Sequence record: PZ871096.1
Source: a phage
Reading direction: 5' to 3' (one strand)
Length of the DNA stretch: 50,355 nucleotides
How positions within the stretch are numbered: position 1 is the first letter of the stretch; each line of letters starts with the position of its first letter. Under the pieces are notes generated by a model. The model worked only from the letters and a program-made list of their open reading frames with translations. It had not been told where the DNA came from and did not search any database. Both the position numbers and the translations under genes were made by a program. Positions 529-45,066 of this stretch are shown here, piece after piece.

Positions 529-2096
529 TGATCATATGGGAAGATTTGACGGCGGCGCAAAAGCGAGCCATTAAAGAAATCAGTGAGCATTCATTCGAAA
601 AGATGATTAGAATCTGGTTCCAGTTATTGCAGGGGCAAAAATTCCAGAGCAACTGGCATTTTAGCTTATTGTGCAGAGAGGTAGAGAAGATCATCAATGG
701 AGAGTCGCAGAATGTGATTTTCAACATTACGCCAGGTAGCGGTAAGACTGAGATTTTCTCGATCCACATGTCACCCTACGCGTCATTGAAAAGCCGGAAG
801 GTGAGAAATCTTAACCTTTCGTTTAGTGATGGCCTTGTCCAGCAAAACAGCAACCGGATAAAGGAGATTATTGGTTCTCCTGAGTGGCAAGAGCTATGGC
901 CTGGGAAACTGGCAAAGGCGAGCGCTAAAGATCTGATAGTCACCGAAGGCGGCAAGGTTAAATTGCAAGCTAACTCACGTTCTATTGGCGGCCAGGTAAC
1001 AGGTTTGCGTGGCGGCTATATGGACGATGGTTTTACTGGTATGCTGGTTCTTGACGATCCAGACAAGCCGGATGACATGCTTTCTAAGGTTAAGCGTGAG
1101 GCGATCCACATGCGGTTAAAAAACACAGTGCGATCGCGTCGAATGAAAGACACCACGCCGATTGTTATGGTGCAACAGCGACTACACGTTAATGATTCCA
1201 CCTGGTTTATGCTTAATGGCGGGATGGGTGGTATTGAGTTTAAAGTTGTGAGCATTCCGGCGCTGGTTACGGAAGAATACCGCGAAACGCTTCCTGATTG
1301 GTTGAAGCCTGAATTTGATCGTGATGTGCTGTCAAGTAAGCCAGTTATGATAGATGGCGTTGCTCATTATTCATTCTGGCCTGCGAAGGAAAGCGCGGAG
1401 GAGTTGCTCGCATTGCGCAATGCAGATCCTTACACGTTCGCCAGCCAATACCAACAGCAACCAATCGCGCTGGGCGGGAACGTGTTTAAAACAGAGTGGT
1501 TCCAGTATTACGGCAGCGGCGAAAAATGCGCACTACCAAAACCGGATCGCTTTGAATACACATTTATTACTGGAGATACCGCGCAGAAGGCCGGAGAGCT
1601 TAACGACTATTCAGTTTTTTGTTACTGGGGGATGTATAAGAATCGCGTTTACTTCATTGATGGCATTCGCGGAAAGTGGGAAGCGCCGGATCTTGAATTA
1701 AATTTTATTGCCTTCGTTAATCAGTGCTGGAAGCGCAATAAGGAGTGTGGCAGCTTGCGACGTATCCACATTGAGGATAAGGCCAGCGGCACTGGTTTGA
1801 TTCAGGGGGCCAAAAAGAAGATCCCGATTGATATAAATCCCGTTCAGCGAAGCAATGACAAGGTAACGCGAGCAATGGACGCCGCGCCAGTGATGAGGGC
1901 CGGACGTGTGGCGCTGCCAGAAAATCACCCCATGCTGCCTGAGATACTGGCAGAGGTTGCAGCATTCACTTTTGATGATTCTCATCCCCATGATGATATT
2001 GTCGATAATATAGTTGATGCTGTTAACGTCGAAATGAACTTGGCAGATGATCCGGTGGCAAGGATGAAAAAGCTGGCTGGTCTACGCAATAAATAG
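528..2096 (+). CDS. terL: terminase large subunit
   Basis: 522 aa; ATPase and nuclease-type motifs (e.g. GMLVLDDPDKPDD Walker B-like); first gene pair of the packaging module. Confidence 0.85.
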   Translation: MIIWEDLTAAQKRAIKEISEHSFEKMIRIWFQLLQGQKFQSNWHFSLLCREVEKIINGESQNVIFNITPGSGKTEIFSIHMSPYASLKSRKVRNLNLSFSDGLVQQNSNRIKEIIGSPEWQELWPGKLAKASAKDLIVTEGGKVKLQANSRSIGGQVTGLRGGYMDDGFTGMLVLDDPDKPDDMLSKVKREAIHMRLKNTVRSRRMKDTTPIVMVQQRLHVNDSTWFMLNGGMGGIEFKVVSIPALVTEEYRETLPDWLKPEFDRDVLSSKPVMIDGVAHYSFWPAKESAEELLALRNADPYTFASQYQQQPIALGGNVFKTEWFQYYGSGEKCALPKPDRFEYTFITGDTAQKAGELNDYSVFCYWGMYKNRVYFIDGIRGKWEAPDLELNFIAFVNQCWKRNKECGSLRRIHIEDKASGTGLIQGAKKKIPIDINPVQRSNDKVTRAMDAAPVMRAGRVALPENHPMLPEILAEVAAFTFDDSHPHDDIVDNIVDAVNVEMNLADDPVARMKKLAGLRNK

Positions 2097-2123
2097 CACT
2101 AATTGCTAAAAAGTTATATAATC

Positions 2124-6692: not shown

Positions 6693-6741
6693 CTAATAGC
6701 ATAAAAAAACATTGCACGTTTAACAAAAAGTGCTATCATCT

Positions 6742-10430: not shown

Positions 10431-10503
10431 CATTCCTGTAAAATCAATCTATCAAATAAATTAATTCCACTTTTAACAAAAAGTGCTATAAGGAGATCTT
10501 GAG

Positions 10504-20495: not shown

Positions 20496-20774
20496 TCACC
20501 CCCAAAAAGTATATATATATCTTGAATCAGATCCAGAAAGTCCACTCCATGTAACGGTGTCGCCACTTACCCCTAAGTTTGGTGCGCCAGGGTCGCCACC
20601 ACGCCAGGAATTCATGCCAACATATATTGCTTTCAATGATTTACCTGGCGGCCTGTTTTGGTAAGTCTTGCTACCTGATGGCTGAGTGAATTTATCAAGG
20701 AAGAAAACAGGCGTTAAAAGTCCTGTAACTTCCCTCCCTCGATCGTCATATATTGCATAACCATATTGCGCCAT
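20496..20774 (-). CDS. hypothetical protein
   Basis: 92 aa; ATG overlaps the lipoprotein stop (TAATG), translational coupling. Confidence 0.5.
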   Translation of the reverse strand: MAQYGYAIYDDRGREVTGLLTPVFFLDKFTQPSGSKTYQNRPPGKSLKAIYVGMNSWRGGDPGAPNLGVSGDTVTWSGLSGSDSRYIYTFWG

Positions 20775-21043
20775 TAATTACACCTCAAATCAATAAATTT
20801 ACTTTCATTTTGCCAGCGGTTGATAAATTTAACTTCTTTATTGTCAACGCTCAACCTGTATTGCTTTTGGCTGAATCTGTTTTCGCGGACTGCATTAATT
20901 TTAACCTCATGGAATCCGTTAACAGGGAATGTTTTAACGTTAAATTTTGCCGTGCAATCGATCTCTTTGAAGCCGCCAGTAGGCGACGCTGCGCATCCGG
21001 TCAGAGCGGCTACGGTGGCGATAACTGCGATTAATTTTTTCAT
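20774..21043 (-). CDS. outer-membrane lipoprotein, candidate superinfection-exclusion protein (Cor/Llp-like)
   Basis: ORF-track frame 20774-21049; ATG 21043 with AAGGAG SD; signal peptide plus lipobox MKKLIAVIATVAALTG|C; placed next to the receptor-binding tail gene as cor/llp are in T1/T5-type phages. Confidence 0.5.
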   Translation of the reverse strand: MKKLIAVIATVAALTGCAASPTGGFKEIDCTAKFNVKTFPVNGFHEVKINAVRENRFSQKQYRLSVDNKEVKFINRWQNESKFIDLRCN

Positions 21044-21074
21044 CTTCAATACTCCTTAGTTGTCGTTGCCTGTA

Positions 21075-21117
21075 ACTATACACGATCCGACAAGCGGCGT
21101 TTAGCAAAAAGTGCTAC
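21075..21117 (-). promoter_or_regulatory. conserved-box promoter (variant box GTAGCACTTTTTGCTAAAC, 18-nt spacer, TATAGT)
   Basis: box at 21099-21117, -10-like hexamer at 21075-21080 (minus strand). Confidence 0.5.
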
Positions 21118-21237
21118 TTGTTATTTTTTGTTTTCCGGTGTTATCGGATTTAAGACGGCGTAAATTTAGCGCAAATTTTAGCCAACATAAGAACAATAAA
21201 TAATCAATAAAATAGATATATACATATAAAATCAATA

Positions 21238-21400
21238 GTTTATTTATTTATGTATGTATATTTGTTTTTTCTTGTTATCTGTGTTTCTTGTGGTTTTGGT
21301 TGTTTGTGGTGATTTTTCTTTCTGAGTATCTGTATGTGCCATCATTCATGTGTATGTATATAATCCGGCGTATCTGAGAGAACAGGGGAACAAGAAAAAT
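21238..21400. repeat. AT-rich TG/TA-repeat element, copy A (homologous to 40737-40990)
   Basis: shared blocks TTATTTATTTAT, GTATGTATAT, TTGTTATCT, TTGTGGTTTTGGT, GTATCTGTATGTG, GGGAACAAGAAAAA. Confidence 0.6.
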
Positions 21401-21486
21401 AACACATATTAATCATTAACTTACGCGTCAAATTTGTTTTGTTGCCATCTGAGAACGTTTAGAAAACAGAAAAAACAAAACAACTA

Positions 21487-21514
21487 TTGACTAAATCAAC
21501 CAAATGGCTACAAT
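21487..21514 (+). promoter_or_regulatory. sigma70-type promoter for exonuclease-ERF-SSB operon
   Basis: TTGACT (21487-21492), 16-nt spacer, TACAAT (21509-21514); SD GAGGAG; ATG 21545. Confidence 0.55.
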
Positions 21515-21544
21515 GCACACACAAAGCAACGAGGAGCATTAAAG

Positions 21545-25995: not shown

Positions 25996-26012
25996 TTGTA
26001 AAATCCTCCTAA

Positions 26013-26033
26013 ATAGCACTTTTTGCTAATGAC
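26013..26033 (+). promoter_or_regulatory. conserved box in inverted orientation immediately upstream of tail fibre SD
   Basis: ATAGCACTTTTTGCTAATGAC on + strand; on the minus strand GCAAAAAGTGCTAT is followed directly by AGGAGG and the ATG. Confidence 0.4.
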
Positions 26034-26101: not shown

Positions 26102-27031
26102 TTATAGCAGTGATTCGGGCTTGTAGAGTTTTCTTTCTACGCCCTGTTTAAAATTATCGTTAACAGGCATCATTATGTCAAGACCTCTTTCCTCTGCCGA
26201 GATTATCACATCACGATCATCTTTCCGGCAGACTACACGCATTCTTCTTTCTCCTTTATATCTATGCGCAACCATTTCAAGATTTGAAGGAGTAAAGCAA
26301 GCCCACACCTCTTGACCAGTTGATAAATGAACATGCTGGGAGTCAACCCAATCAAGGCACAAATAGATCGTCTTATCTGTGCTACCTGTTTTAACAACAG
26401 ATCCGCGCGTGTAGTCGCGAGCTAAAAACCAATCCTTTCCATCCTCATCAATGAAAAGCACGTTACACATTTCATCATCCAGCCCGTCATCATGCACCAG
26501 GTGACAAGGTAGCGCGTGAATGTATCGACCATCCTTGACGCCGCAATCATAATAACAATCTTCCGGCGGATATATCCCCTCATAAACGCTTAAGGGTGTG
26601 CGATCGAATTTTAATGTTTTTGCCATCACTTTTTCGCAGCATTCATGACTTGCCTGTTTCCCGAACGAGTAACCAGAAGAACGCGAAGCGCGCTTGTTTG
26701 CTCTGATCCTGTAATCCTGCGGCACTTTTCCGAGGAAGCGGCCCAAAATGTTGATGGCCTCGCTGTAAGGTTCGCCAGTTAATTTCATTAACCAACCGAT
26801 CCCTGTGTCGTTACCGCATACGTTGCAGATAGCGCCGCCGTCGCCCTCTTCATTTAGCTTATCAGTCCATCTAAAACGATCCTTGCCGCCGCAGTGTGGG
26901 CAAGGCTGATGCTTTTTGTTGAAAACATCGCTATGCAGTCCGCAAATGCTTTGTAGTGCTTCACGCCATAACCCCTTCATATATGGCAAAACGTCTTCTT
27001 TCTGATAGGTCATAAAGTTTTCAGTATTCAT
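26102..27031 (-). CDS. DNA primase (zinc-finger containing)
   Basis: ORF-track frame 26102-27109; start moved to ATG 27031 because a terminator hairpin (27041-27080) lies inside the longer frame; CPHCGG...CNVCG zinc-binding motif. Confidence 0.55.
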   Translation of the reverse strand: MNTENFMTYQKEDVLPYMKGLWREALQSICGLHSDVFNKKHQPCPHCGGKDRFRWTDKLNEEGDGGAICNVCGNDTGIGWLMKLTGEPYSEAINILGRFLGKVPQDYRIRANKRASRSSGYSFGKQASHECCEKVMAKTLKFDRTPLSVYEGIYPPEDCYYDCGVKDGRYIHALPCHLVHDDGLDDEMCNVLFIDEDGKDWFLARDYTRGSVVKTGSTDKTIYLCLDWVDSQHVHLSTGQEVWACFTPSNLEMVAHRYKGERRMRVVCRKDDRDVIISAEERGLDIMMPVNDNFKQGVERKLYKPESLL

Positions 27032-27040
27032 GGCAAACCC

Positions 27041-27080
27041 TAATAAAAAAGCCCAGCAAATATTATCATTTCGCTGGGCC
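27041..27080 (-). terminator. intrinsic terminator between regulator and primase genes
   Basis: minus strand GCCCAGC ... GCTGGGC stem followed by T6. Confidence 0.55.
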
Positions 27081-27086
27081 TTATCA

Positions 27087-27563
27087 TTAGCTATTCGTGC
27101 TGTTATCACCTTTGTAGAATCGTCCGCCTGGTTCGTAGTCTGAATTTTTGACTACGCGCAACATTTCGTATTTGTCGCAACGGGTAGTAAGAGGCTTGCC
27201 GTTAGAATCAAACCGCAGATCTGGACGACAAAACGAGGCGCGGTATCCTTTGCATCCATTATATTTGTAGTCGTTATGCACCTTTTGTGCTCCAGCGGCT
27301 GAAATCATACCACGCTTTCGCCACTGGTTAACGACTTGCTGAGATACGCGCAGACGTCGGGCCATAGCAGGAACACCGCCGTAATACTCGATCAGAATGT
27401 CAAGGCGAGATTTCAGGCTTGCTTTTACCTCATCTCGCAGGATAAGAAATCCGGTTCGGTGTTTTCGTGGCTTTTTGTCTTTACCTCGTCGCGTTCCGTT
27501 GTTACCGTTAATAGTGCGCTTGTCGATCTCACCAGTAGATACTGCAATTCGTGCATCTTTCAT
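27087..27563 (-). CDS. HTH DNA-binding protein (Cro/CI / YdaS-like helix-turn-helix)
   Basis: 158 aa; GGVPAMARRLRVSQQVVNQWRKRGMIS HTH signature; GAGGTGA SD; divergent from helicase gene. Confidence 0.55.
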   Translation of the reverse strand: MKDARIAVSTGEIDKRTINGNNGTRRGKDKKPRKHRTGFLILRDEVKASLKSRLDILIEYYGGVPAMARRLRVSQQVVNQWRKRGMISAAGAQKVHNDYKYNGCKGYRASFCRPDLRFDSNGKPLTTRCDKYEMLRVVKNSDYEPGGRFYKGDNSTNS

Positions 27564-27574
27564 CTAGTCACCTC

Positions 27575-27618
27575 ATAGCATTTTTTGTTAAAACAGTTTA
27601 TTGTAATGAGTCTATTAT
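27575..27618 (+). promoter_or_regulatory. conserved-box promoter for helicase operon; box also abuts the SD of the divergent regulator gene
   Basis: ATAGCATTTTTTGTTAAAAC (27575-27594), 18-nt spacer, TATTAT (27613-27618). Confidence 0.5.
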
Positions 27619-29648: not shown

Positions 29649-30067
29649 TGGCTATAACTGATAAAGGCGATTATCTTGAGTTTTACGAAAGGGATCCAAC
29701 CGACACGAGAAGGGAAGTTAATCACCAGATAGATAGTTTTCAGTGGTTGACTTATGCTCATCCTTATTTGCTGGCGTGGCATACGGTAAACGAGAATGAG
29801 AAGTCTAAAGTAACGGCGATGATTGATCAGCAGTCCGGCTTGGTTAAGGGAGTAAGCGATTTCATCATCCTGATTGGTTTAAACGGAAAATACCCCTTTG
29901 CAGCGATTGAGATCAAACGAGTGAATAAATCAGGCAAGGGGAAAGCATCACCAGTCAGCGATGAGCAAAAGGCTTTTTTGCGTCGCGTTCGCAGCTTAGG
30001 AGGATTCGCTGCGGTAGCCTACGGATTCAATCAGTTTAAGTTGGCTATTGAATACATGCTTAAATAG
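29648..30067 (+). CDS. VRR-NUC domain nuclease
   Basis: 139 aa; GVSDFIIL...AAIEIK...SPVSDEQ matches the VRR-NUC PD-(D/E)XK signature. Confidence 0.65.
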   Translation: MAITDKGDYLEFYERDPTDTRREVNHQIDSFQWLTYAHPYLLAWHTVNENEKSKVTAMIDQQSGLVKGVSDFIILIGLNGKYPFAAIEIKRVNKSGKGKASPVSDEQKAFLRRVRSLGGFAAVAYGFNQFKLAIEYMLK

Positions 30068-30107
30068 CACTTTTTGTTAAAACTGGCGCGATGGATTGCG
30101 CCATAAT
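30064..30107 (+). promoter_or_regulatory. conserved-box promoter
   Basis: ATAGCACTTTTTGTTAAAAC, 18-nt inverted-repeat spacer (GGCGC...GCGCC), CATAAT. Confidence 0.5.
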
Positions 30108-30147: not shown

Positions 30148-30873
30148 ATGGCTAAAGATATTTTAGATAAAGACACACATGACGCATTCGTTAGCTTTGA
30201 GCAGTTGGAGAGAGAAACGTTTATAGGGAATGCCCTTGCAACTGGAGGCCATTACCAGGCAGTAAAGCCAAATCAATATTATAAGGTAAGCGGAAACCGA
30301 TACGCTGGAAGCACTACGCCGGACGTTGTGCGAGATATGTGGAGCACGCCTCAAGAGATCGTGGAGTGGATGGAATCAGAATTTGGTGAATACGATCTCG
30401 ACGCGGCAGCAAGCCAGGAAAACGCAGTTTGCGAGAAGTTCTATAGCAAGGAGACAAACTGCTTAAAGCGTTGGTGGGGTAGCAACAAGCACGTATGGCT
30501 TAACCCGCCGTACAGCAACCCAACTCCATTTATCAAGAAAGCAATTGAGCAAATGGAGCACAACAACCAAATTGATGTTTTGTTGCCAGCCGACAACTCT
30601 ACAGCATGGTTTTATGAGGCGCAGAAAAACGCGGCTGAAATCATCTGGATCACTGGTGAGGTTTACGAAGAGGGTGGGGTAGAATACTCCCGCACCGGAA
30701 GAATTGCCTTTGTGTCTGGATTGACTGGCGAGCCTGTGCAGGGCAACAACAAGGGAAGCGTGATTTTTGTCATGCGCAAACTTAAAGAAGGCGAGGAGCA
30801 GAAAACGCGATACGTTAAGATCAGCGATATTTGCCCTTCTGTAACCGAACGTCGCGCACGCAAACGGAGCTAA
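30148..30873 (+). CDS. dam: DNA N6-adenine methyltransferase (phage Dam family)
   Basis: ORF-track frame 30121-30873; ATG 30148 best placed relative to GGAG; catalytic NPPY motif (WLNPPYS). Confidence 0.75.
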   Translation: MAKDILDKDTHDAFVSFEQLERETFIGNALATGGHYQAVKPNQYYKVSGNRYAGSTTPDVVRDMWSTPQEIVEWMESEFGEYDLDAAASQENAVCEKFYSKETNCLKRWWGSNKHVWLNPPYSNPTPFIKKAIEQMEHNNQIDVLLPADNSTAWFYEAQKNAAEIIWITGEVYEEGGVEYSRTGRIAFVSGLTGEPVQGNNKGSVIFVMRKLKEGEEQKTRYVKISDICPSVTERRARKRS

Positions 30874-30877
30874 CACG

Positions 30878-31135
30878 ATGAAAAAAGAGAGAAGCGTTTA
30901 TTTAAATGAAACTGGCGAGTGGTTGTTATTTCGCGCTATGGTGTGCGATGCACTTGATAAAAACCCTAACGTGAAAAAGATGATTGATTGCGATCCGTGG
31001 GAATTTTCAAGCGCATTAGATATGAGCTTTGAGGAGACAAGAAAACTCCCGCTTGAAAAATGGCACGAACAAATCAGAAATGACATGCAAGAGTTTGTCG
31101 ATTCGTGGAATTTTCAGCACGGAATGATCCACTAA
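30878..31135 (+). CDS. hypothetical protein
   Basis: 85 aa; SD ACGGAG. Confidence 0.5.
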   Translation: MKKERSVYLNETGEWLLFRAMVCDALDKNPNVKKMIDCDPWEFSSALDMSFEETRKLPLEKWHEQIRNDMQEFVDSWNFQHGMIH

Positions 31136-31178
31136 TAGCACTTTTTGTTAAAACGCCCGGCCTAGTGTCGGGCATAAT
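31135..31178 (+). promoter_or_regulatory. conserved-box promoter (inverted duplicate of 34351-34394)
   Basis: ATAGCACTTTTTGTTAAAAC, spacer GCCCGGCCTAGTGTCGGG, CATAAT. Confidence 0.5.
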
Positions 31179-34350: not shown

Positions 34351-34394
34351 AATATACCCGACACTAGGCCGGGCGTTTTAACAAAAAATGCTAT
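34351..34394 (-). promoter_or_regulatory. conserved-box promoter (inverted duplicate of 31135-31178)
   Basis: minus strand ATAGCATTTTTTGTTAAAAC, spacer GCCCGGCCTAGTGTCGGG, TATATT. Confidence 0.5.
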
Positions 34395-34511
34395 TCCATA
34401 CGCTTTACCGTAACCAGTAATACACCATCATCATTGCATAAAACATGTTCAGTGGTGCTAAAAGCGCGCATATCTGAATAAAGTAGCGTAAGTAAAGCAT
34501 GAATAAAATCC

Positions 34512-34907
34512 TCATGTGATATTGAATTTACGGCGCAGTGCTTCAAGATCTTGTCTATTAGCTTTTGCCTGGAACAATTCATCATCTCCCATCTCCCCTA
34601 TTCTAGCCATATCCCTGATCCAGTCGTTGCGCATACCATCCAGGCTATACAATTCGAATCCGAAAGGCCGCTTTGACGATCCTTTGGACCAGTATTTTCC
34701 GCAGACCCCATCTATATAACCAGCCGTCATCATTCTTGCGCAAAATTCCTTAGATGCAAGGCTGGCGAACATTCGCGGCGTAAGTCCGGCGGCCCGTGCG
34801 AGCCGCTCACATTCTCTATGCTGATAGATAAATTTGGCTATGTGCTGCCTGTTAAACCAGTCGTATGACTCACACCATTTATACAGATCAAGCAAAAACA
34901 TAATCAT
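34512..34907 (-). CDS. hypothetical protein
   Basis: 131 aa, overlaps stop of upstream ATPase gene. Confidence 0.45.
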   Translation of the reverse strand: MIMFLLDLYKWCESYDWFNRQHIAKFIYQHRECERLARAAGLTPRMFASLASKEFCARMMTAGYIDGVCGKYWSKGSSKRPFGFELYSLDGMRNDWIRDMARIGEMGDDELFQAKANRQDLEALRRKFNIT

Positions 34908-36484
34908 CCCAGCAGTATTGGATTGACAAAAATAACACCATTAATCACACAAACATAATTTCTTTCTTCCAGCATTGGCAGCAAGTGCCCCTCTATCCTC
35001 TTCATTACGCCAGCCTGACCAACGAAAGGTTTTACCTTTCTCGCTGATTCGTACAGGGCGCGAATATTCAGGATCCCTTTGTTAGCCTTGCCGTGCCTCG
35101 TGATCAATTCAATCAATTTACCCATTTCAGCATCATCACCAGCATAACCAGAAGCATTGGCGGCGCTAATGTATGTTTTGCTCAATTCCTGAAACATGAT
35201 CAACGCCTCTTGCATTGTTTCCACGTCGATCTCTTTCGACTTCTGCGGGTATCCGGCAGGATTAAACCAGTTACGGATAACATGCAGGACGGAAGCAAGC
35301 CTGATCACCTGTTTATCCATTTTACCCAGCGCACCGCGTAACATTGTATGAGAATACTTTCCGCCGTCTGCAAGATGCGGTTCCATATCCTGGCGAGCAA
35401 TGTTGAGCACTCGCATAGCTGAACGGCTTATTTTCAGCGATATATTTGATTCGCTCATGATGTTATGCACCAATTGATAATATTGGGCCTTCAATTCAGG
35501 ATCCACCGCCTCATAGGTAGAATCACCATTTTCATCAATGAATGAGCGACGGCCTAAGAATGATTCCTCACGGACCAACAAAAAGCGCTCACTCACACCG
35601 ATACCGCGCGATCCAGCGTCCATGATTCCGCTTATCGTTTCATCCTGTGCTATAACGCTCATACATCCAAGCGCGCGAAAACTCATGTTATTGTCAGCAT
35701 TAGCACGGGCAATTGATACGTGACCATTATCCCACGCCTTAAGCACTAGCTCACTGTTAGTCTTCCTTTCGCTATTTGCATAGGTCAAGCCTAACAGACT
35801 GTTAATACTTGTTGCTTCGTCAGATATTACGGCAAAGTTACCTTGCTTGTTGTTGATTTTCGCCAAGCCTTCTGGAGTTGTATCTGAAACAGGGAAAGTT
35901 ATATCACACATCTTTTCCAGCTTCTCTTCCAGATCCTCTTTTTCCTGGTATAGAGATTCCATATCAGCGCCTGATCTTTCGCTTTTCATCTCTTTTGCAA
36001 GACCTGCCAACTTTGCCTGTATTTTCTTTCTTTCCTTGCGGCGTTGCTCGTTGATCTTCTCAACTTCCGCAATCATCGGAGAAATAGCCATACTGTTGAT
36101 CGCAGATTTACCAGTTGACGGCGGCTGGCTTGTAACGACGTAAAGCGCAGTCGGCTGATCGGTCCCGTGATAGTCAACCGTAAAGCGTCCAAGCATGGCG
36201 GCAGAAATGCAGCCGATAAAGTGCATGTAAGCCGATGATTCAGGGAATTGAACTGATCGCGCAATACTGCGTGATAACTTTCCTACAACATCAATATCAT
36301 TACCAAGAGAAATTACGGGGTAGCGATCGTGACCGCTATTTACATCCTTCACGTCGCCCCAAAAGCTGGACGACTGGCGATAGCCGTTAGCCTGAATTGA
36401 TACGCGAACTGGTGAAAGGTTCTGGCTTTCAGCCATGGCGATTATTTGCTGTGGAGTTAATTTGTTCGTTTCTAATGAAAACAT
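34904..36484 (-). CDS. P-loop NTPase-like protein (degenerate Walker A SQPPSTGKS, Walker B FAVISDE); possible replication-associated ATPase
   Basis: 526 aa; motif spacing typical of P-loop ATPases; AAGGAG SD; first gene after promoter 36513-36556. Confidence 0.4.
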   Translation of the reverse strand: MFSLETNKLTPQQIIAMAESQNLSPVRVSIQANGYRQSSSFWGDVKDVNSGHDRYPVISLGNDIDVVGKLSRSIARSVQFPESSAYMHFIGCISAAMLGRFTVDYHGTDQPTALYVVTSQPPSTGKSAINSMAISPMIAEVEKINEQRRKERKKIQAKLAGLAKEMKSERSGADMESLYQEKEDLEEKLEKMCDITFPVSDTTPEGLAKINNKQGNFAVISDEATSINSLLGLTYANSERKTNSELVLKAWDNGHVSIARANADNNMSFRALGCMSVIAQDETISGIMDAGSRGIGVSERFLLVREESFLGRRSFIDENGDSTYEAVDPELKAQYYQLVHNIMSESNISLKISRSAMRVLNIARQDMEPHLADGGKYSHTMLRGALGKMDKQVIRLASVLHVIRNWFNPAGYPQKSKEIDVETMQEALIMFQELSKTYISAANASGYAGDDAEMGKLIELITRHGKANKGILNIRALYESARKVKPFVGQAGVMKRIEGHLLPMLEERNYVCVINGVIFVNPILLG

Positions 36485-36512: not shown

Positions 36513-36556
36513 ATTTTAACGGCCCAATACTACCCCGTTTTGTCAAAAAGTGCTAT
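36513..36556 (-). promoter_or_regulatory. conserved-box promoter (box variant ATAGCACTTTTTGACAAAAC)
   Basis: 18-nt spacer then TAAAAT lying in the loop of hairpin GGGCC...GGCCC. Confidence 0.5.
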
Positions 36557-36774
36557 TTGATCCGCTCTATTGCAACCAGAAGTCGATCAGGCTGGCGGTC
36601 GCTGTAGCATTCTCCTGTAATCCCATCCTTAAACGTAAAGTAAAGCGCCTTATGATATGAAAAACCAATCAGCCAACCTACCGCCGTTTTTTTGATGGGC
36701 CTGACTATATCGCCAGGCTTGAAAGTCTTTGTGGTAGAATGCGTTACTTTGTAACGGTTTTCACTGTTTATCAC
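36553..36774 (-). CDS. hypothetical protein
   Basis: 73 aa ORF, operon context. Confidence 0.4.
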   Translation of the reverse strand: MINSENRYKVTHSTTKTFKPGDIVRPIKKTAVGWLIGFSYHKALYFTFKDGITGECYSDRQPDRLLVAIERIK

Positions 36775-37186: not shown

Positions 37187-37230
37187 ATTATGCCAGGTTT
37201 TTACACCTGGCTTTTAACAAAAAGTGCTAT
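37187..37230 (-). promoter_or_regulatory. conserved-box promoter
   Basis: minus strand ATAGCACTTTTTGTTAAAAG, hairpin spacer GCCAGG...CCTGGC, CATAAT. Confidence 0.5.
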
Positions 37231-37937
37231 TTTGAGTTTGACTCAAAGACGGCGCGAGCAAATCCGCGCGGAGTGAGGGAGCGGATCATCTTTGTGCGCG
37301 ATGACTTCCCGCCAGTTTTGGCCCAGCCTGGATTATCTTTGTCTTCCTCTTTCGGCAGGATTAAAGCGCGCGGAGGAATAACAAAGCCGTTGCCAGTCCA
37401 GAGGCACGTTTTCTTAAAATAGCGATCCCGTGCCGGAATAATATCAGGGAAGTCGGGATGTTTATCATCTTCCGGCAGATAGCCAGCGTAATCGCACGGA
37501 TGGAACGTATAATCAGGCTTTCGCCATAACGTTGACAACTTGCCAACCGGATTTTCGATCATGTAAGGAACACCGAAATAATCAGCTATATCAGCCGCGA
37601 TTCTGCAAGTGTCGGCGGCCTCATCCTGGAATGATGGATTCTCAAGGCGTTTTTTGGCCCAATGGCGAGATCCGCTATTTGCAAGGTCGGTGCATGGTGG
37701 GAAGGCCATAATAAAATCAGGATTGCCCAACTCATTATTGATTGCCTTAACATAAAAAGCATCATCAATCCAGACGTTAACGTATTCGATATTCTCATGC
37801 TGTATGCGCACTGACTGGTAATCACCGTGATCGCCACCGTCAGCATTAAAGCAAATGCACTTATAGCCATTATCAGCCCAATCTTTAACGGCTTTACCAG
37901 ATCCATCAAATAGGGAGAATATTAAACCTTTATACAT
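37227..37937 (-). CDS. DNA (cytosine-5)-methyltransferase
   Basis: ORF-track frame 37227-38006; ATG 37937 with GAGGT SD; motif I LFDGSG, motif IV FPPC(T), motif VI ENPVG in canonical order. Confidence 0.6.
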   Translation of the reverse strand: MYKGLIFSLFDGSGKAVKDWADNGYKCICFNADGGDHGDYQSVRIQHENIEYVNVWIDDAFYVKAINNELGNPDFIMAFPPCTDLANSGSRHWAKKRLENPSFQDEAADTCRIAADIADYFGVPYMIENPVGKLSTLWRKPDYTFHPCDYAGYLPEDDKHPDFPDIIPARDRYFKKTCLWTGNGFVIPPRALILPKEEDKDNPGWAKTGGKSSRTKMIRSLTPRGFARAVFESNSK

Positions 37938-39104: not shown

Positions 39105-39148
39105 ACTATACCAATCAGCAGCGCATCGTTTTTAACAAAAAGTGCTAT
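39105..39148 (-). promoter_or_regulatory. conserved-box promoter
   Basis: minus strand box, hairpin spacer CGATGCGC...GCGCATCG with TATAGT at fixed 18-nt offset. Confidence 0.5.
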
Positions 39149-39412
39149 TTAGTCCAGGAATTCGATTTCACGCTCTCCAGTTAACGGATCCACAAGCCAG
39201 AATCCGAGCGGTTCGCCGTGAGCACCGCCATAGAATCCAAGAGCCGTCAGATCTTCACCTTTAACGAATACCAGATTTCCGCTACGGCTTACGTGAGACA
39301 CGTTAACGATAACCGGAAATGTGCGATCCTTAAATGCAGGCCGCAGGGCGTAACATCCGTTATTGAGCAAGCGTGCTTTGCGCTTAACTGGAATAGGTGC
39401 ATTAATTTTCAT
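39149..39412 (-). CDS. hypothetical protein
   Basis: 87 aa ORF. Confidence 0.45.
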   Translation of the reverse strand: MKINAPIPVKRKARLLNNGCYALRPAFKDRTFPVIVNVSHVSRSGNLVFVKGEDLTALGFYGGAHGEPLGFWLVDPLTGEREIEFLD

Positions 39413-40409: not shown

Positions 40410-40453
40410 AATGTACCCGATCAGGTGGCCTGAGTTTTAACAAAAAGTGCTAT
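40410..40453 (-). promoter_or_regulatory. conserved-box promoter heading the leftward operon
   Basis: minus strand ATAGCACTTTTTGTTAAAAC, 18-nt spacer, TACATT. Confidence 0.45.
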
Positions 40454-40460
40454 TTGACGG

Positions 40461-40575
40461 TTATCGCCAGGATTGCGATAGAAATAATCAAAAGTAATCA
40501 TTCGTAATCAAATCACGTCAAAATGATGATTGCCTTTGCAAATTTGATGAGAAAAGTAATCACGTTTAATCATTG
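40461..40575. repeat. palindrome TATCGC-N7-GCGATA plus five TAATCA repeats (iteron/operator-like)
   Basis: TAATCA at 40486, 40495, 40505, 40558, 40567; AATCACG twice. Confidence 0.5.
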
Positions 40576-40736
40576 GTTGCAGGGGAGATAGTGAAACCTT
40601 CCCCTCTTGCCTCACTTTTCCGCCTGGCTGTCAGTGGTTGTTATGTTCCGTTCCCGCCTGTTCTTTTGTTGACCTTCCGCAAAATACGATAACAAAAAAT
40701 AACAAACAGTACCTATATAATACATTGAAAAATAAG

Positions 40737-40990
40737 GATTATTTATTTATATGTATCTATATATTCTCTTTTGTTATCTTGGTTATTGTGGTATTTGGTG
40801 GGGGTATATAGTTTTTGTGTATCTGTATGTGTGTGTGGGTATGTATGGGCATATATATCTATATGGCACTTTCCGCGAGAAAACTTCGATAACAGGCAAT
40901 GATAACATTGATTTATAAGGAAAAATAACGCCCATATTGTTATTGTGCCACCATATAAAATTGATAAAACACGCGGGAACAAGAAAAAAC
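40737..40990. repeat. AT-rich TG/TA-repeat element, copy B (homologous to 21238-21400)
   Basis: same blocks as copy A in the same order, same strand. Confidence 0.6.
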
Positions 40991-40992
40991 AG

Positions 40993-41021
40993 TTGACACA
41001 TTAAATAGCATTATTGATAAT
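40993..41021 (+). promoter_or_regulatory. strong sigma70-type promoter for rightward operon
   Basis: TTGACA (40993-40998), 17-nt spacer, GATAAT (41016-41021); spacer contains a degenerate copy of the conserved box (ATAGCATTATTGATAATG). Confidence 0.6.
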
Positions 41022-41050
41022 GCCCACACCTAACAACCAGGAGGTAGAAA

Positions 41051-41515
41051 ATGAGCGAGCAATCATTCACTGACACGCTGCGCCGTGCCGCTATTATGCT
41101 GGCTAATGGCGAGGAAGAGACGATCAAGATTCCTGACGCGTATTTGCAGGTCCACATGTTCGGCAAGAAGTCGGCAAGCAATCCTGCGGCCTACATTCGC
41201 CAGATCATGAGTCGAGTGCCAGAAGTCGCCGAGCGGGGGCGCGTATCCGTTACCCGTGGCGTTTACGGGCCGGAAGATGAAAACTTCGGTAGCACTTTCT
41301 ACGAGGTGCGGATTGTTGAAGGCCGTCGCAAGGTTTACAACAAAGAAGCACTGGAAAGGGCAGTGCGCCAGGCTAAGCGCAAGGTTGCAGAGGCGATCAT
41401 TGATATGTCACCAAACCTGGCAAACTATGCGCCGGAAGAGTACGAAACATTATCAAAGGCCGTCGCTGACTTTCACGCGATGATCAAAAAAACTTTCCTG
41501 GATGATGAGCAATGA
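41051..41515 (+). CDS. hypothetical protein
   Basis: 154 aa; SD AGGAGG. Confidence 0.5.
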   Translation: MSEQSFTDTLRRAAIMLANGEEETIKIPDAYLQVHMFGKKSASNPAAYIRQIMSRVPEVAERGRVSVTRGVYGPEDENFGSTFYEVRIVEGRRKVYNKEALERAVRQAKRKVAEAIIDMSPNLANYAPEEYETLSKAVADFHAMIKKTFLDDEQ

Positions 41516-41784
41516 AAAAGGCATTAATCAGCGTTTTGGCGGCAATGGCATTCCTGACCGGATGCAAAGAAGATGGCGCGCATGTTGGCAATGTGCAGAT
41601 GGCTAACCCTGGCGATGACTACAGCGTAAGGGAGCTATTCACCGCTGACGGTTGCACCGTTTACCGATTCTATGACGATCGCACTGTTTACTTCACCAAC
41701 TGCAAGGGCGCTACTAGCTGGGAAGTGTCGAAAAGCAATGGCAAAGGCACGAAGACAGAACATATGACCGTCGAGACAAAATAG
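41512..41784 (+). CDS. lipoprotein (second lipobox protein in genome)
   Basis: 90 aa; signal peptide and lipobox MKKALISVLAAMAFLTG|C. Confidence 0.55.
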   Translation: MKKALISVLAAMAFLTGCKEDGAHVGNVQMANPGDDYSVRELFTADGCTVYRFYDDRTVYFTNCKGATSWEVSKSNGKGTKTEHMTVETK

Positions 41785-41824
41785 CACTTTTTGTTAAAAC
41801 GCCAGGCGCGAAGCCTGGCATAAT
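41781..41824 (+). promoter_or_regulatory. conserved-box promoter
   Basis: ATAGCACTTTTTGTTAAAAC, spacer hairpin GCCAGGC-gcgaa-GCCTGGC, CATAAT. Confidence 0.5.
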
Positions 41825-42057: not shown

Positions 42058-42243
42058 ATGAAAACGAAATTAGTCCATAAATCAGAAATCAAGATCGGCG
42101 ATACTGTGATTCACAACGGCGAGCTTAGAACGGTTGGCAAAGAGTCAATAAGCCACGATGAATTTATGGGGATCTTGTTGTTCGGTGACTCTTATCGTCT
42201 TGGTTACAAGATGGTTGAGCTTGTGGAAGAGGTAAAATTCTAA
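42058..42243 (+). CDS. hypothetical small protein
   Basis: 61 aa ORF. Confidence 0.45.
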   Translation: MKTKLVHKSEIKIGDTVIHNGELRTVGKESISHDEFMGILLFGDSYRLGYKMVELVEEVKF

Positions 42244-42287
42244 ATAGCACTTTTTGTTAAAACTCAAAAACGATAACCAGGCATAAT
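42244..42287 (+). promoter_or_regulatory. conserved-box promoter driving a long GC-rich leader
   Basis: ATAGCACTTTTTGTTAAAAC, 18-nt spacer, CATAAT (42282-42287). Confidence 0.5.
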
Positions 42288-42687: not shown

Positions 42688-43581
42688 ATGTTAAAACTTG
42701 CTGACATTAAATTCCCGATCACCTTCGAATCTCGCGGCATTGGTCATTACATTTTTACCGATGAAAAAACATGCCATAAGGTTGATATGAATAGCGACAA
42801 ACTAAGCCCATCAGACATGGAGATTGAACACTTTATTGATGCGCACAATACGCAGTACAACGCACTTAAAGACTATGGCTATGCAATGCCAGGATATACC
42901 AGCTTCCACTACAAGCCATATAAAGGCCAGGTGTTGCCAGTGCGCTCACCGGAACGCGCAGAGATTCCGATGGTCGAGATGAAAACATGCGACTATAAAA
43001 AGCTGTGGTGCTTAAGTGTTGACAATATCAAGTATCCGATCACGTTCTACACGGTTGGTAATTCAACGATTCGCTTCACATCGCGCGACAATGGCGTTTA
43101 TAGCGATGGTCAGAAATCAGAGTTGAAAGTTGATTTCTTTGTCAACGGTCACAATAGATACAATCCGCACAACGAAAAAGATAAAGTGTATTACGTGGAA
43201 GATATTACAAAACACTTGTTTGGAGAAACTCCATTCGGCGGCGGTAAGACGTCAATTCAAAAAATCATTGGCGATGAGATCCACAAAGCGGCTGCCGAAA
43301 TGAAAGCGCCTGGAGGCTGGCGCATTGACAAGAGCGCATTTGCAAATCAAGAAATCGTAACGCAGGGCGCAATTGAAGATATGCCAGTTGCAGCCACTCT
43401 AAAAGGAGTCCGGCTTGATGACGGCACCTGGTATGAAGTAACGGCTACGCCAAAGACGATCGAGATTCATGATGACGTTGTTATCCTTCTGCTTCACTAC
43501 GGCGGCTATAAAAACCGGACGATTGCAGGTGAGATCAGCATTAAGCGCGGAACGATGGTTAAGTGGAAGGTCAAAGTGTAA
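42688..43581 (+). CDS. hypothetical protein with internal repeat
   Basis: 297 aa; SD AGGAG; repeated segment IKFPITFESRG / IKYPITFYTVG. Confidence 0.5.
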   Translation: MLKLADIKFPITFESRGIGHYIFTDEKTCHKVDMNSDKLSPSDMEIEHFIDAHNTQYNALKDYGYAMPGYTSFHYKPYKGQVLPVRSPERAEIPMVEMKTCDYKKLWCLSVDNIKYPITFYTVGNSTIRFTSRDNGVYSDGQKSELKVDFFVNGHNRYNPHNEKDKVYYVEDITKHLFGETPFGGGKTSIQKIIGDEIHKAAAEMKAPGGWRIDKSAFANQEIVTQGAIEDMPVAATLKGVRLDDGTWYEVTATPKTIEIHDDVVILLLHYGGYKNRTIAGEISIKRGTMVKWKVKV

Positions 43582-43625
43582 ATAGCACGAATTGTTAAAA
43601 CTCAAATGTGGGGCCAGGTATAATG
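43582..43625 (+). promoter_or_regulatory. conserved-box promoter (box variant ATAGCACGAATTGTTAAAAC)
   Basis: TATAAT in loop of hairpin GGGCC...GGCCC. Confidence 0.5.
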
Positions 43626-44874: not shown

Positions 44875-45066
44875 ATGGCTGACTTTATGCATCAAATGAT
44901 TGTTGTATTTAAGGGCAGTGAAGATGAAGAGGTTCGCGAATGCTTCACCATTGAGAAATCATACAGCGCATCTTTAACCAGTTTTGGCAACATATCTATG
45001 ATTGATGATAATGGCGATCCGTGGATTTTTGAAGATGATACGGATTGCTTTGAGATTAAAGAATAG
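44875..45066 (+). CDS. hypothetical acidic small protein
   Basis: 63 aa; SD GGAG. Confidence 0.45.
   Translation: MADFMHQMIVVFKGSEDEEVRECFTIEKSYSASLTSFGNISMIDDNGDPWIFEDDTDCFEIKE

What the first reader, a model, noticed from the sequence alone, without database searches (positions are those of the whole stretch)
21181..21544. TG/TA-rich repeat element (copy A) upstream of the recombination-operon promoter; a diverged second copy lies at 40737-40990
Seen directly: 21238-21400 and 40737-40990 share, in the same order and strand, the blocks TTATTTATTTAT, GTAT(G/C)TATAT, TTGTTATCT, TTGTGGT(T/A)TTGGT, GTATCTGTATGTG, GTATGTAT and GGGAACAAGAAAAA (about 70 percent identity over about 130 bp by eye). 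Each copy sits in a large non-coding divergent region and ends at a canonical sigma70 promoter (TTGACT-16-TACAAT at 21487-21514 here). The alternating purine-pyrimidine and phased T-tract composition suggests bent or easily melted DNA. Inference: duplicated UP-element or enhancer-like regions for the two strongest early promoters, or replication-origin or pac-associated DNA.
Basis: partly seen in the sequence, partly recalled or inferred. Interest (0 to 1): 0.6.

Follow-up and report, generated by a model that had tools for sequence, protein, structure and literature searches.

The report
Paired origin-like DNA modules in T1-like phage
The repeat is real: it is the core of a roughly 420-bp non-coding module present twice in every T1-like phage genome examined, built like a replication origin (short oriented repeats around the most easily melted DNA in the genome), so it gives testable candidates for the still-unmapped origin of this phage family.

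Summary
The window is a complete Warwickvirus (Drexlerviridae, T1-like) genome. The A/B similarity is confirmed: local alignment score 85, against 23±3 for dinucleotide shuffles. It is only the core of a larger module, A at 21094-21535 and B at about 40612-41049. A profile built without this phage finds exactly these two sites. Nine Drexlerviridae genomes from seven genera each carry two copies.

Each module has a TA-rich block flanked by short repeats in opposite orientation, about 10 bp apart. Next come a G+T-rich spacer, more repeats and a promoter. The two TA blocks are the two least stable 80-bp duplex segments in all nine genomes.

The repeat word differs by lineage but is shared by both copies of a genome. 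This implies a phage-encoded binding protein.

The phage encodes an MCM-fold helicase with a C-terminal winged helix, as in self-loading SaPI Rep helicases. SaPI origins have the same iteron / AT-rich / iteron layout.

Best reading: paired replication origins coupled to promoters (confidence 0.45). The main rival is operator arrays for early transcription (0.25). An UP-element role and a pac role are not supported. The pac-type repeats form a separate block left of copy B.

No function has been shown experimentally.

The parts
21094..21535 (+). Module A, the whole paralogous unit upstream of the exoVIII-Erf-SSB operon.
   Evidence: nhmmer hit with a profile built from other phages, E 4e-58. 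Aligns collinearly with 13 other modules.
21099..21124 (-). Leftward 21-nt ATAGCAC-type repeat (promoter-associated) at the left edge of module A, pointing away from it towards the Cor-like gene.
   Evidence: Repeat family D5. This family is described in TLS (PMC11447400).
21118..21146 (+). Left TGTT array of A. TGTT starts at 21119, 21129 and 21139, with 10-bp phasing.
   Evidence: In the corresponding alignment columns TGTT outnumbers AACA 63:1 across 14 modules.
21156..21165 (+). Box 1, CGGCGTAAAT, followed by AAATTT-AGCGC-AAATTT. The box is also recognisable in KP36 (ACGTAAATTTCGCGCAAAATTT).
   Evidence: Conserved columns. KP36 sequence.
21184..21197 (+). AACA pair (21184, 21192) on the left flank of the TA-rich block, in the opposite orientation to the TGTT sites on the right flank.
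   Evidence: AACA to TGTT 23:1 in these columns.
21187..21266 (.). TA-rich block of A, the candidate DNA unwinding element. It is the least stable 80-bp window of the genome.
   Evidence: Nearest-neighbour dG -78.4 against a genome mean of -109.2±6.1, z 5.1, rank 1.
21230..21242 (+). AATCAATAGTTTA, an exact match to the IHF consensus WATCAANNNNTTR, inside the TA block.
   Evidence: Five genome matches against 4 expected, so the match alone means little. What matters is that the box AAATCAATAGTTTA or a close variant sits in the same alignment columns in 9 of the 14 modules.
21263..21305 (+). Central TGTT array (21263, 21273, 21282, 21301), on the right flank of the TA block.
   Evidence: TGTT to AACA 49:2.
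21238..21340 (+).
   Evidence: The 100-nt window starting at 21238-21239 is 83% G+T, rank 1 in the genome (mean 0.50±0.06). In all 14 modules the central 89-149 nt are 59-80% G+T on the promoter-sense strand.
21347..21362 (.). Second TA/TG block, CATGTGTATGTATATA. It is the longest alternating purine-pyrimidine run in the genome.
21365..21374 (+). Box 2, CCGGCGTATC.
   Evidence: Conserved columns CC..CG.AA.
21378..21405 (+). Right AACA array: GAGAACA, GGGAACA, AATAACA at 21381, 21389 and 21401.
   Evidence: AACA to TGTT 35:2.
21411..21424 (+). Conserved box AATCATTAACTTAC (one mismatch to the IHF core).
   Evidence: Conserved columns AATCA...ACTT.
21461..21483 (+). A-tract/AACA block directly upstream of the -35 hexamer. 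This is the real UP-element-like position.
21487..21514 (+). Promoter P_A, TTGACT-16-TACAAT. It is conserved from T1 to the Tempevirinae.
   Evidence: TLS P51.
40612..41049 (+). Module B, the whole paralogous unit upstream of the rightward cluster of small genes (first gene DUF7174, 41051-41515).
   Evidence: nhmmer hit at 40639-41049, E 2e-34. The left edge is set by the first TGTT site at 40639; 40612 is an approximate boundary.
40639..40672 (+). Left TGTT array of B (40639, 40644, 40659, 40667).
40688..40709 (+). AACA array (GATAACA, AATAACA, AACA) on the left flank of the TA block of B.
40689..40768 (.). TA-rich block of B, the second least stable 80-bp window of the genome.
   Evidence: dG -82.0, z 4.5, rank 2.
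40771..40848 (+). TTGTTATC site followed by the G+T-rich spacer of B. A mosaic breakpoint lies at about 40801-40805.
   Evidence: 80% G+T, rank 2. Most relatives match only bases 1 to 427-431 of the intergenic region.
40888..40910 (+). Two GATAACA sites 13 bp apart.
40968..40992 (+). AACA array in 10-bp phase (40968, 40978, 40988). It includes GGGAACAAGAAAAA and abuts the -35 hexamer.
40993..41021 (+). Promoter P_B, TTGACA-17-GATAAT.
   Evidence: TLS P01.
34904..36484 (-). DUF3987 helicase: MCM-fold AAA+ core plus a C-terminal winged helix (residues about 450-520). It is the candidate trans-acting protein that binds the repeats; this is an inference.

Best explanation
The TG/TA-rich repeat is the centre of a roughly 420-bp cis-acting module present twice per genome in Drexlerviridae. 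I propose that the two modules are the phage's replication origins, or an origin plus a second cis-replication site.

Proposed mechanism:
1. A phage-encoded sequence-specific protein binds the short repeats. In this phage the repeat is RWAACA, spaced about 10 bp apart, and the sites face each other across the TA-rich block. The most likely binder is the MCM-like DUF3987 helicase, through its C-terminal winged helix, acting as a self-loading initiator-helicase like SaPI Rep.
2. The IHF-type box inside the TA block may help bend the DNA.
3. Transcription leaving the module may add negative supercoiling. In copy A and copy B of this phage that transcription runs outwards on both sides.
4. The TA block, the least stable duplex in the genome, melts. 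Helicase is loaded in both directions, the phage primase (26102-27109) primes, and host DNA polymerase III extends.
5. The promoter at the right end couples the module to the timing of expression.

Shown: the anatomy, the conservation, the duplex instability, the lineage-specific repeats and the fold of the helicase.
Inferred: binding, melting and initiation.
For: 1. Two and only two copies in the window. Seven genomes give 14 collinear modules. Rtp and KP36 also have an A/B pair. That makes nine genomes from seven genera.
2. The TA blocks of A and B rank first and second among the least stable 80-bp windows in all nine genomes. Their z values are 4.4-6.3. The third window has z of 3.6 or less in eight genomes and 4.4 in KP36.
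3. Repeat orientation alternates in six blocks across the 14 modules: 63:1, 23:1, 49:2, 35:2, 17:0, 22:1. Spacing is about 10 bp, and sites of opposite orientation flank the TA block.
4. The repeat word is lineage-specific and shared by both copies. GATAACA: 6 of 17 genome copies lie in the 2.3% of the window covered by the two regions. KP36 GTAAGAT: 13 of 19 copies in the two modules. T1 GTGTAACA: 4 of 4. T1 GATTAACAC: 3 of 3.
5. KP36 copies A and B are about 87% identical over 130 nt, yet the E. coli-phage profile does not detect them. Both copies therefore changed together, which points to one phage-encoded binder.
6. The phage encodes an MCM-fold helicase with a C-terminal winged helix and a zinc-ribbon primase. 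No initiator or DNA polymerase appears among the annotated genes of close relatives. DUF3987 proteins are regarded as replicative SF6 helicases with a C-terminal wHTH (PMC4889955).
7. SaPI origins have this same layout: 5-6-nt iterons bound by the winged helix of Rep, an AT-rich centre, and at least two iterons on each side pointing in opposite directions (PMC9371898).
8. No origin is known for T1-like phages (PMC11447400; PMC7718038).
9. The third sigma-70 promoter has no module, and KP36 copy A is not followed by a sigma-70 consensus promoter. The module is therefore not simply an accessory of such promoters.
Against: - There are no experimental data on initiation sites.
- In this phage the repeat word is short and degenerate (core AACA). 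Within a single sequence the inverted arms are not significant: 24 against 17.6±2.4, and the best shuffle reached 28.
- The modules lie 4.2 kb and 13 kb from the helicase gene. A SaPI origin lies immediately downstream of rep.
- Every module examined sits directly upstream of an operon's promoter. In KP36 copy A lies upstream of the recombination operon although that operon is inverted. That is what a transcriptional control region would do.
- A Cro-like HTH protein (27087-27563) is an equally available binder.
- A winged helix on an MCM-type helicase does not prove origin recognition.
- GC skew follows transcription direction and is uninformative.
Confidence: 0.45

Rival explanations
1. Operator or enhancer arrays for transcription. 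A phage regulator binds the oriented repeats in both modules to switch the two operons on or off together. The Cro/YdaS-like 158-aa HTH protein made from the third sigma-70 promoter is one candidate. This would resemble OL/OR in lambdoid phages, possibly with looping between arrays, and the TA block would serve only as a flexible hinge.
For: - Every module is fused to the promoter of an operon.
- In TLS, P_A and P_B are two of only three predicted sigma-70 promoters.
- A Cro-like HTH protein is encoded.
- KP36 has perfect palindromic pairs, GTAAGAT-GA-ATCTTAC, typical of dimeric HTH operators.
- Lineage-specific repeats shared by both copies fit any phage-encoded binder.
- In KP36 module A lies upstream of the recombination operon although that operon is inverted.
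Against: - An operator does not need the most unstable DNA of the genome. Yet that property holds in 9 of 9 genomes even where the sequence has diverged beyond recognition.
- Most sites lie 85-380 bp upstream of the -35 hexamer rather than over the promoter.
- The third sigma-70 promoter lacks the module.
- The partly palindromic ATAGCAC 21-mers (about 20 copies) are a more obvious target for the HTH protein.
Confidence: 0.25
2. A purely structural upstream region. Flexible or curved TA/TG DNA and host nucleoid proteins (IHF, Fis) wrap RNA polymerase, or absorb the supercoiling made by divergent transcription, and so make the two promoters very strong. No phage-specific binder is involved.
For: - Extreme TA and TG content and alternating purine-pyrimidine runs.
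- An exact IHF consensus in A.
- A-tracts next to the -35 hexamer.
- In this phage the modules lie between divergent transcription units.
Against: - The repeat words differ between phages that infect the same E. coli K-12 host (T1, TLS, Rtp, Warwickvirus), but the two copies of one genome share the same word. That argues against a host factor.
- KP36 copy A is not in a divergent region.
- The distance to the promoter varies from about 60 to about 250 bp.
- The IHF consensus is not enriched in the genome.
Confidence: 0.1
3. A packaging (pac) accessory site, or a recombination hotspot or linker used to exchange gene cassettes.
For: - Copy B lies next to the region where the T1, TLS, Rtp and haarsle records start, which the papers call the pac region.
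- A mosaic breakpoint lies inside module B.
- Copy A precedes the recombination genes.
Against: - The pac-type TGATT/AATCA arrays form a separate block (40480-40580) that is absent from copy A.
- A second pac site 19 kb away would conflict with the single ordered headful series described for T1 and TLS.
- Breakpoints in conserved non-coding DNA are an expected by-product of homology.
Confidence: 0.05

Closest known systems
SaPI replication origins bound by self-loading Rep helicases (Staphylococcus aureus pathogenicity islands; PMC9371898)
Bacillus phage SPP1 oriL and oriR (PMC3485210)
   Same: A pac-type virulent siphovirus with two separated sites bound by one origin-binding protein. According to that paper's abstract, oriL fires theta replication, and protein bound at oriR may stall the fork and lead to recombination-dependent replication.
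   Different: SPP1 uses G38P with a loader and a DnaB-type helicase, and I recall that oriL lies inside gene 38. No homology was tested. Here both copies are intergenic and fused to promoters.
Satellite phage P4 ori and crr, bound by the C-terminal domain of the alpha primase-helicase (from memory, not checked in a paper)
   Same: Two cis sites several kb apart carrying the same short repeats. The P4 type I repeat TGTTCACC resembles the TGTTCAC/GTGAACA words of TLS. The T1 primase record is annotated as similar to P4-type alpha proteins.
   Different: PDB sequence searches with the helicase (alone and as a profile), the primase and the HTH protein returned no P4 alpha hit. The helicase is MCM-like, not the D5-type SF3 helicase of alpha. 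The resemblance is an analogy only.
The 21-nt ATAGCACnnnTTGnTAAAA repeats of TLS, T1 and Rtp (PMC11447400)
   Same: They occur in the same genomes, are intergenic and promoter-associated, and their function is unknown. One copy sits at the left edge of each intergenic region (21099-21124 and 40435-40460, both on the minus strand).
   Different: They are a different sequence family, with about 20 copies, each directly upstream of a gene. The module described here is 420 bp, has two copies, and is not mentioned in that paper.
UP elements and upstream IHF/Fis activation of strong promoters (rrn P1, lambda pL)
   Same: A-tracts directly upstream of the -35 hexamers of P_A and P_B, and an IHF-type box further upstream.
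   Different: The shared TG/TA core lies 150-250 bp upstream, the module extends to about -380, and its repeats are phage-lineage-specific.

Membership tests
Iteron/AT-rich origin of a self-loading helicase (SaPI type) | AT-rich, easily melted centre | tested here: met
   Ranks 1 and 2 among the least stable 80-bp windows in 9 of 9 genomes.
Iteron/AT-rich origin of a self-loading helicase (SaPI type) | [quoted passage not shown] | tested here: met
   Window A has 2 AACA sites left and 3-4 TGTT sites right. Window B has 3 left and 1 clear site right. Column counts over 14 modules are 23:1 against 49:2. KP36 and Rtp copy A have inverted sites flanking the block. The word is degenerate in this phage.
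Iteron/AT-rich origin of a self-loading helicase (SaPI type) | The element encodes an AAA+ helicase with a C-terminal winged-helix domain | tested here: met
   AlphaFold2 model, pLDDT 87.9, with an H-S-H-H-S-S pattern at residues 450-520. Fold matches. PMC4889955.
Iteron/AT-rich origin of a self-loading helicase (SaPI type) | Origin immediately downstream of the rep gene | tested here: not met
   The helicase gene is at 34904-36484. The modules are at 40612 and 21094, 4.2 kb and 13 kb away.
Iteron/AT-rich origin of a self-loading helicase (SaPI type) | The helicase binds the iterons, melts the centre, and the site supports replication | not testable with these tools
   Needs EMSA or footprinting, permanganate probing, plasmid amplification or marker-frequency data.
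UP element | A/T-rich element at -40 to -60, contacted by the alpha C-terminal domain | tested here: not met
   The shared core is at 21238-21340, and the -35 hexamer is at 21487. Separate A-tracts at 21461-21483 and 40968-40992 occupy the UP position.
pac site of T1-like phages | Lies where packaged-genome records and mapped ends start, and is a single site per genome | tested here: not met
   The T1, TLS and Rtp records start in the TGATT/AATCA block left of module B, and the haarsle record starts just to its right. The block has a 10-bp tandem period at 40485-40512 and is absent from A.
P4 ori/crr system | Repeats bound by a homologue of the alpha C-terminal origin-binding domain | tested here: inconclusive
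   PDB sequence searches found no alpha hit. A winged helix exists, but its closest fold matches are Orc/Cdc6, Stn1 and kleisin winged helices.
TLS-type 21-nt ATAGCAC repeat | Match to aaATAGCACnnnTTGnTAAAA, about 76 nt upstream of a start codon | tested here: not met
   Only the copies at the left edges (21099-21124 and 40435-40460, minus strand) match. The shared core does not.
IHF binding site | WATCAANNNNTTR with AT-rich flank | tested here: inconclusive
   Exact match at 21230-21242, and the box or a close variant is present in 9 of 14 modules. Genome-wide the count equals chance (5 against 4.0), and copy B of this phage lacks it.
Known RNA families (Rfam 15) | A match reaching the family's gathering score | tested here: not met
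   The best hits score 12-24 bits against thresholds of 50-376.

The most novel reading that the evidence does not exclude
The two modules are not redundant origins but divide the work. One fires early theta replication. The other, still bound by the initiator, acts as a programmed fork barrier or second start that hands replication over to the adjacent exoVIII-Erf-SSB recombination system (copy A), or feeds concatemers to the adjacent pac site (copy B). Initiation, recombination-dependent concatemer synthesis and packaging would then be wired together in cis. The extreme G+T/C+A strand asymmetry of the spacer would set the direction of helicase loading or priming.
Probability: 0.12. Interest if true: 0.75.

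Novelty: new member of a known kind. Interest (0 to 1): 0.55.

Why it matters
T1 is one of the seven classical T phages, and Drexlerviridae are common laboratory and fermentation contaminants and candidates for phage therapy. Even so, two recent genome papers state that no replication origin has been found for them (PMC11447400, PMC7718038).

The paired modules give two precise, conserved and experimentally addressable candidates, together with a candidate initiator (an MCM-like helicase with a winged helix). If confirmed, they would:
- extend the self-loading-helicase type of origin, known from SaPIs and SCCmec, to a large family of virulent enterobacterial phages;
- explain two large 'empty' intergenic regions that several GenBank records currently fill with doubtful small ORFs;
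- provide parts for engineering these phages, such as origin-bearing plasmids amplified on infection and safe sites for insertion.

If instead they are operators, they define the early regulatory circuit of the family. Either way the element is real and has not been described in the papers I could search.

Tried and rejected
1. GC skew to locate an origin. The skew simply follows transcription direction, so it is uninformative.
2. Homology to P4 alpha. PDB sequence searches with the helicase, primase and HTH protein, and with a helicase profile, gave nothing relevant. P4 is kept only as an analogy.
3. Internal repeat structure within one module. The direct half-against-half alignment scores below the shuffles (17 against 19.8). 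The inverted one is only weakly above them (24 against 17.6±2.4, maximum 28). The oriented arrays are supported by conservation across genomes, not by self-similarity.
4. Cruciform or hairpin potential of the TA blocks as single-stranded DNA. z is -1.2 for A and -2.9 for B, and the other segments are not significant. This is weak and is not used as evidence.
5. Known RNA families: none. Terminator-like sites: none.
6. Homologues in E. coli chromosomes and their plasmids: none.
7. IHF consensus enrichment across the genome: none.
8. Covariation between the helicase winged helix, or the regulator HTH, and the repeat word, using six phages. There are too few sequences and overall divergence confounds the comparison.
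9. An internal sigma-70 promoter firing into the TA block. Only a non-conserved GTGCCA-17-TATAAT at 21336-21364 was found. The conserved TATAAT-like box at the start of the TA block has no -35 partner.
10. The Rtp genome paper could not be retrieved, and the T1 genome paper is not held. I therefore cannot exclude that one of them remarks on these regions.
11. PHROG and Pfam give no function for the first gene after P_B (DUF7174).
Full report
**Identity of the window.** The 50,355-bp window is a complete genome of a T1-like siphovirus. It is 97.6% identical over the test region to Escherichia phages tonnikala and FritzSarasin (Drexlerviridae, Tempevirinae, Warwickvirus). It starts at the small terminase gene.

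Copy A lies in the 495-bp gap between a leftward Cor-like lipoprotein gene (20774-21049) and the rightward exoVIII-Erf-SSB operon (from 21545). Copy B lies in the 676-bp gap between a leftward block of small genes (ending at 40374) and the rightward cluster of small genes that starts with a DUF7174 protein at 41051.

The best local alignment runs 21183-21339 against 40680-40832 and scores 85.
- Dinucleotide-preserving shuffles give 22.8±2.6, maximum 34.
- Shuffles that keep composition within 30-nt blocks give 29.3±5.6, maximum 52.
- For the core alone, none of 2000 shuffles reached the observed score.

**The repeat is part of a larger, ancient, two-copy module.** In FritzSarasin, copies A and B align over about 270 nt, right up to the promoter.

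I took the corresponding gaps from six further phages: haarsle (Hanrivervirus), TLS (Tlsvirus), JohannLBurckhardt and AS5 (Henuseptimavirus), T1 (Tunavirus) and Rtp (Rtpvirus). For seven of the eight phages, all 14 sequences align collinearly over about 420-470 nt.

A profile built from the ten sequences that exclude the window and FritzSarasin finds exactly two significant sites in the window: 21094-21535 (E 4e-58) and 40639-41049 (E 2e-34). It also finds two per genome in the others.

Orthologues are slightly more alike than paralogues. Window A against TLS A is 0.60, and window A against window B is 0.56. The duplication therefore predates these genera.

Rtp has a shorter copy A, but its A and B share 123 gapless nt at about 82% identity. 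Klebsiella phage KP36 (Webervirus) has an A/B pair that is about 87% identical over 130 nt (score 162 against 23±3). The E. coli-phage profile does not detect it at all.

**Anatomy.** Across the 14 modules, the words TGTT and AACA occupy six alternating column blocks with almost no exceptions: 63:1, 23:1, 49:2, 35:2, 17:0 and 22:1. These form three TGTT...AACA inverted pairs.

In window copy A the TGTT sites are at 21119/21129/21139, 21263/21273/21282/21301 and 21435/21440. The AACA sites are at 21184/21192, 21381/21389/21401 and 21465/21474/21479. Most are 8-12 bp apart.

Between the first AACA pair and the central TGTT array lies a TA-rich block. In copy A it contains an exact IHF consensus, AATCAATAGTTTA, at 21230-21242. 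The match alone has no statistical weight (5 genome matches against 4 expected). However, the box or a close variant holds the same position in 9 of 14 modules.

After the central array comes a spacer of variable length and sequence. It is 59-80% G+T on the promoter-sense strand in all 14 modules. In the window these are the two most G+T-rich 100-nt stretches of the genome (0.83 and 0.80; genome 0.50±0.06).

Then follow a second TA/TG block, a CCGGCGTA-type box (also present once further left), the right AACA array, an AATCA...ACTT box, A-tracts and the promoter.

**The TA blocks are the most meltable DNA in every genome.** With nearest-neighbour stacking energies, the A and B blocks rank first and second among the least stable 80-bp windows in all nine genomes. 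These are the window, FritzSarasin and haarsle, T1, TLS, Rtp, JohannLBurckhardt and AS5, and KP36. Their z values are 4.4-6.3. The third-ranked window has z of 3.6 or less in eight genomes and 4.4 in KP36.

The property holds even in KP36, where the primary sequence is unrelated to the E. coli-phage modules.

**The repeat word is lineage-specific but shared by both copies.**
- Window: GATAACA has 6 of its 17 genome copies in the two gaps, which make up 2.3% of the genome.
- KP36: the word is GTAAGAT, with 13 of 19 genome copies in the two modules, ten of them in A. Some form perfect GTAAGAT-GA-ATCTTAC palindromes.
- T1: GTGTAACA has 4 of 4 copies in the modules, and GATTAACAC has 3 of 3.
- TLS favours GTGAACA.

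T1, TLS, Rtp and the Warwickviruses all grow on E. coli K-12. A host protein is therefore an unlikely reader of these words. The two copies of each genome have changed together, as expected if one phage-encoded protein reads both.

**What the module is not.**

It is not an UP element.
- The shared core is 150-250 bp upstream of the -35 hexamer.
- The third sigma-70-type promoter of the family, upstream of the regulator/primase operon (TLS P57), has no module. Its gap in the window is only 87 bp.
- In Rtp copy A the TA block is only about 60 bp from the promoter.
- KP36 copy A is followed by an ATAGCAC-type promoter and lies between the 3' end of the primase gene and the inverted recombination operon, not in a divergent gap.

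It is not pac. The T1, TLS and Rtp records begin inside a distinct block of TGATT/GATTTGA/AATCA repeats left of module B, and the haarsle record begins just to the right of that block. In the window the block is at about 40480-40580, with AATCA at 10-bp intervals and a tandem period of 10 at 40485-40512. Copy A has no such array. The TLS and SU57 papers place pac in that untranslated region.

It is not a known RNA. It has no homologue in E. coli genomes.

**Candidate trans-acting proteins.** The phage encodes the following:
- a zinc-ribbon primase (26102-27109);
- an SF2 helicase with a VRR-NUC partner;
- an SSB;
- a DUF3987 helicase (34904-36484).

Kazlauskas et al. classed DUF3987 proteins as MCM-like SF6 replicative helicases with a C-terminal wHTH (PMC4889955).

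A 158-aa Cro/YdaS-like HTH protein (27087-27563) is the other obvious DNA binder.

**Best explanation.** The layout is that of the origins used by self-loading initiator-helicases: short oriented repeats in helical phase on both sides of the least stable DNA, plus a winged-helix helicase and a primase encoded by the same genome. For SaPIs, Qiao et al. describe the following (PMC9371898):
- 5-6-nt iterons read by the winged helix of Rep;
- six to twelve iterons per origin;
- an AT-rich centre;
- at least two iterons on each side pointing in opposite directions.

I therefore propose that modules A and B are the replication origins, or an origin plus a second cis-replication site, of this phage and of Drexlerviridae in general. 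The adjoining promoters would supply timing and, in the divergent arrangement, negative supercoiling. Two recent papers state that no origin has been found in T1-like phages.

I put this at 0.45. Binding, melting and initiation are all inferred. The repeat word in this particular phage is short and degenerate, and the modules are not next to the helicase gene.

**Rivals.**
- Operator arrays (0.25). The repeats may be operators through which a phage regulator co-controls the two operons. Every module is fused to a promoter, and KP36 has palindromic sites. This reading does not explain why the most unstable DNA of the genome must be kept there.
- Purely structural, host-factor-based enhancement (0.10). 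The lineage-specific words argue against it.
- Packaging or recombination role (0.05). It is disfavoured by the separate pac block and by the presence of two copies.

The readings are not mutually exclusive. Many replicons overlap origin and promoter control.

**Novelty and limits.** The 21-nt ATAGCAC repeats of these phages are published. I found no description of the paired 420-bp modules in the papers I could search.

If the origin reading is right, this is a new member of a known kind (iteron/AT-rich origin of a self-loading helicase). Its unusual features are two copies and fusion to a promoter, with precedents in SPP1 oriL/oriR (PMC3485210) and, from memory, P4 ori/crr.

Noticed in passing
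window 2090-2111, 26010-26031, 27572-27594, 30061-30083, 31132-31154, 41778-41800, 42241-42263, 43579-43600, 45060-45082, 45431-45453, 46933-46954, 48227-48249 (+); 6715-6736, 10467-10489, 21099-21124, 34376-34401, 36538-36563, 37212-37237, 39130-39155, 40435-40460 (-): There are about 20 copies of the 21-nt repeat aaATAGCACtttTTGtTAAAA, always pointing in the direction of the downstream gene. Most of those shown with flanking sequence are followed about 20 nt later by a -10-like cATAAT or TATAgT. In some copies the core is a palindrome, TAGCA-N5-TGCTA. The family is published for TLS with unknown function (PMC11447400). The spacing suggests a class II-type activator site replacing the -35 hexamer, possibly read by the Cro-like HTH protein (27087-27563).
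   Followed up: partly
window 40480-40580: A block of AATCA/TAATCA words at 10-bp intervals (40485-40512; two more at 40558 and 40568) surrounds TGATGATTG and TTTGATGAG. The T1, TLS and Rtp GenBank records start inside the equivalent TGATT/GATTTGA block, and the haarsle record starts just to its right. This is probably the pac and small-terminase recognition region. It is followed by a conserved GC hairpin, AGGGGA-N13-TCCCCT, at about 40581-40605.
   Followed up: partly
window about 40801-40805 (inside module B): A mosaic breakpoint. Most Warwickviruses, including tonnikala, match only the left 427-431 nt of this intergenic region, at about 85%. Only 28 of 158 records cover at least 80% of it. 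The right part of module B in this phage resembles the Hanrivervirus haarsle version (0.64) more than the FritzSarasin version (0.59).
   Followed up: partly
[not shown]
   Followed up: yes
window 40743-40982 (-), 40783-41001 (-); GenBank records OR896823, OR896819, OR525699, PP925846 and others over the A and B regions: Mechanical ORFs of 72-79 aa lie inside module B, and several public records annotate up to three 'hypothetical proteins' across the modules. The cross-genus alignment has many indels and the composition is extreme, so these are probably over-calls. Coding potential was not tested formally.
   Followed up: no
L012 (Klebsiella phage KP36) 34514-35008 and 49709-49797 plus 1-575: In KP36 the exoVIII-Erf-SSB operon is inverted and sits next to the primase gene, and module A lies upstream of it. 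The module carries ten GTAAGAT/ATCTTAC words, some as perfect palindromes. The centre of its TA block is itself a palindrome (AATAATAATATTATTATT).
   Followed up: partly
window 21487-21514; L003 (T1) about 30318-30346; TLS P57 (35881-35909 of NC_009540): The promoter upstream of exoVIII is almost invariant from T1 to the Tempevirinae (TTGACTAAA...AATGGCTAYAAT). It shares TTGACTAAAT with the TLS promoter of the regulator/primase operon, so the sigma-70 promoters themselves may form a small conserved family.
   Followed up: no
window 41051-41515 (+): The first gene after P_B is a conserved DUF7174 protein (phrog_4841) of unknown function. A first gene of similar size follows P_B in T1, TLS, Rtp, haarsle and KP36. 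Because it sits next to module B, it is another candidate module-binding protein. Its homology in the other phages and its structure were not examined.
   Followed up: no
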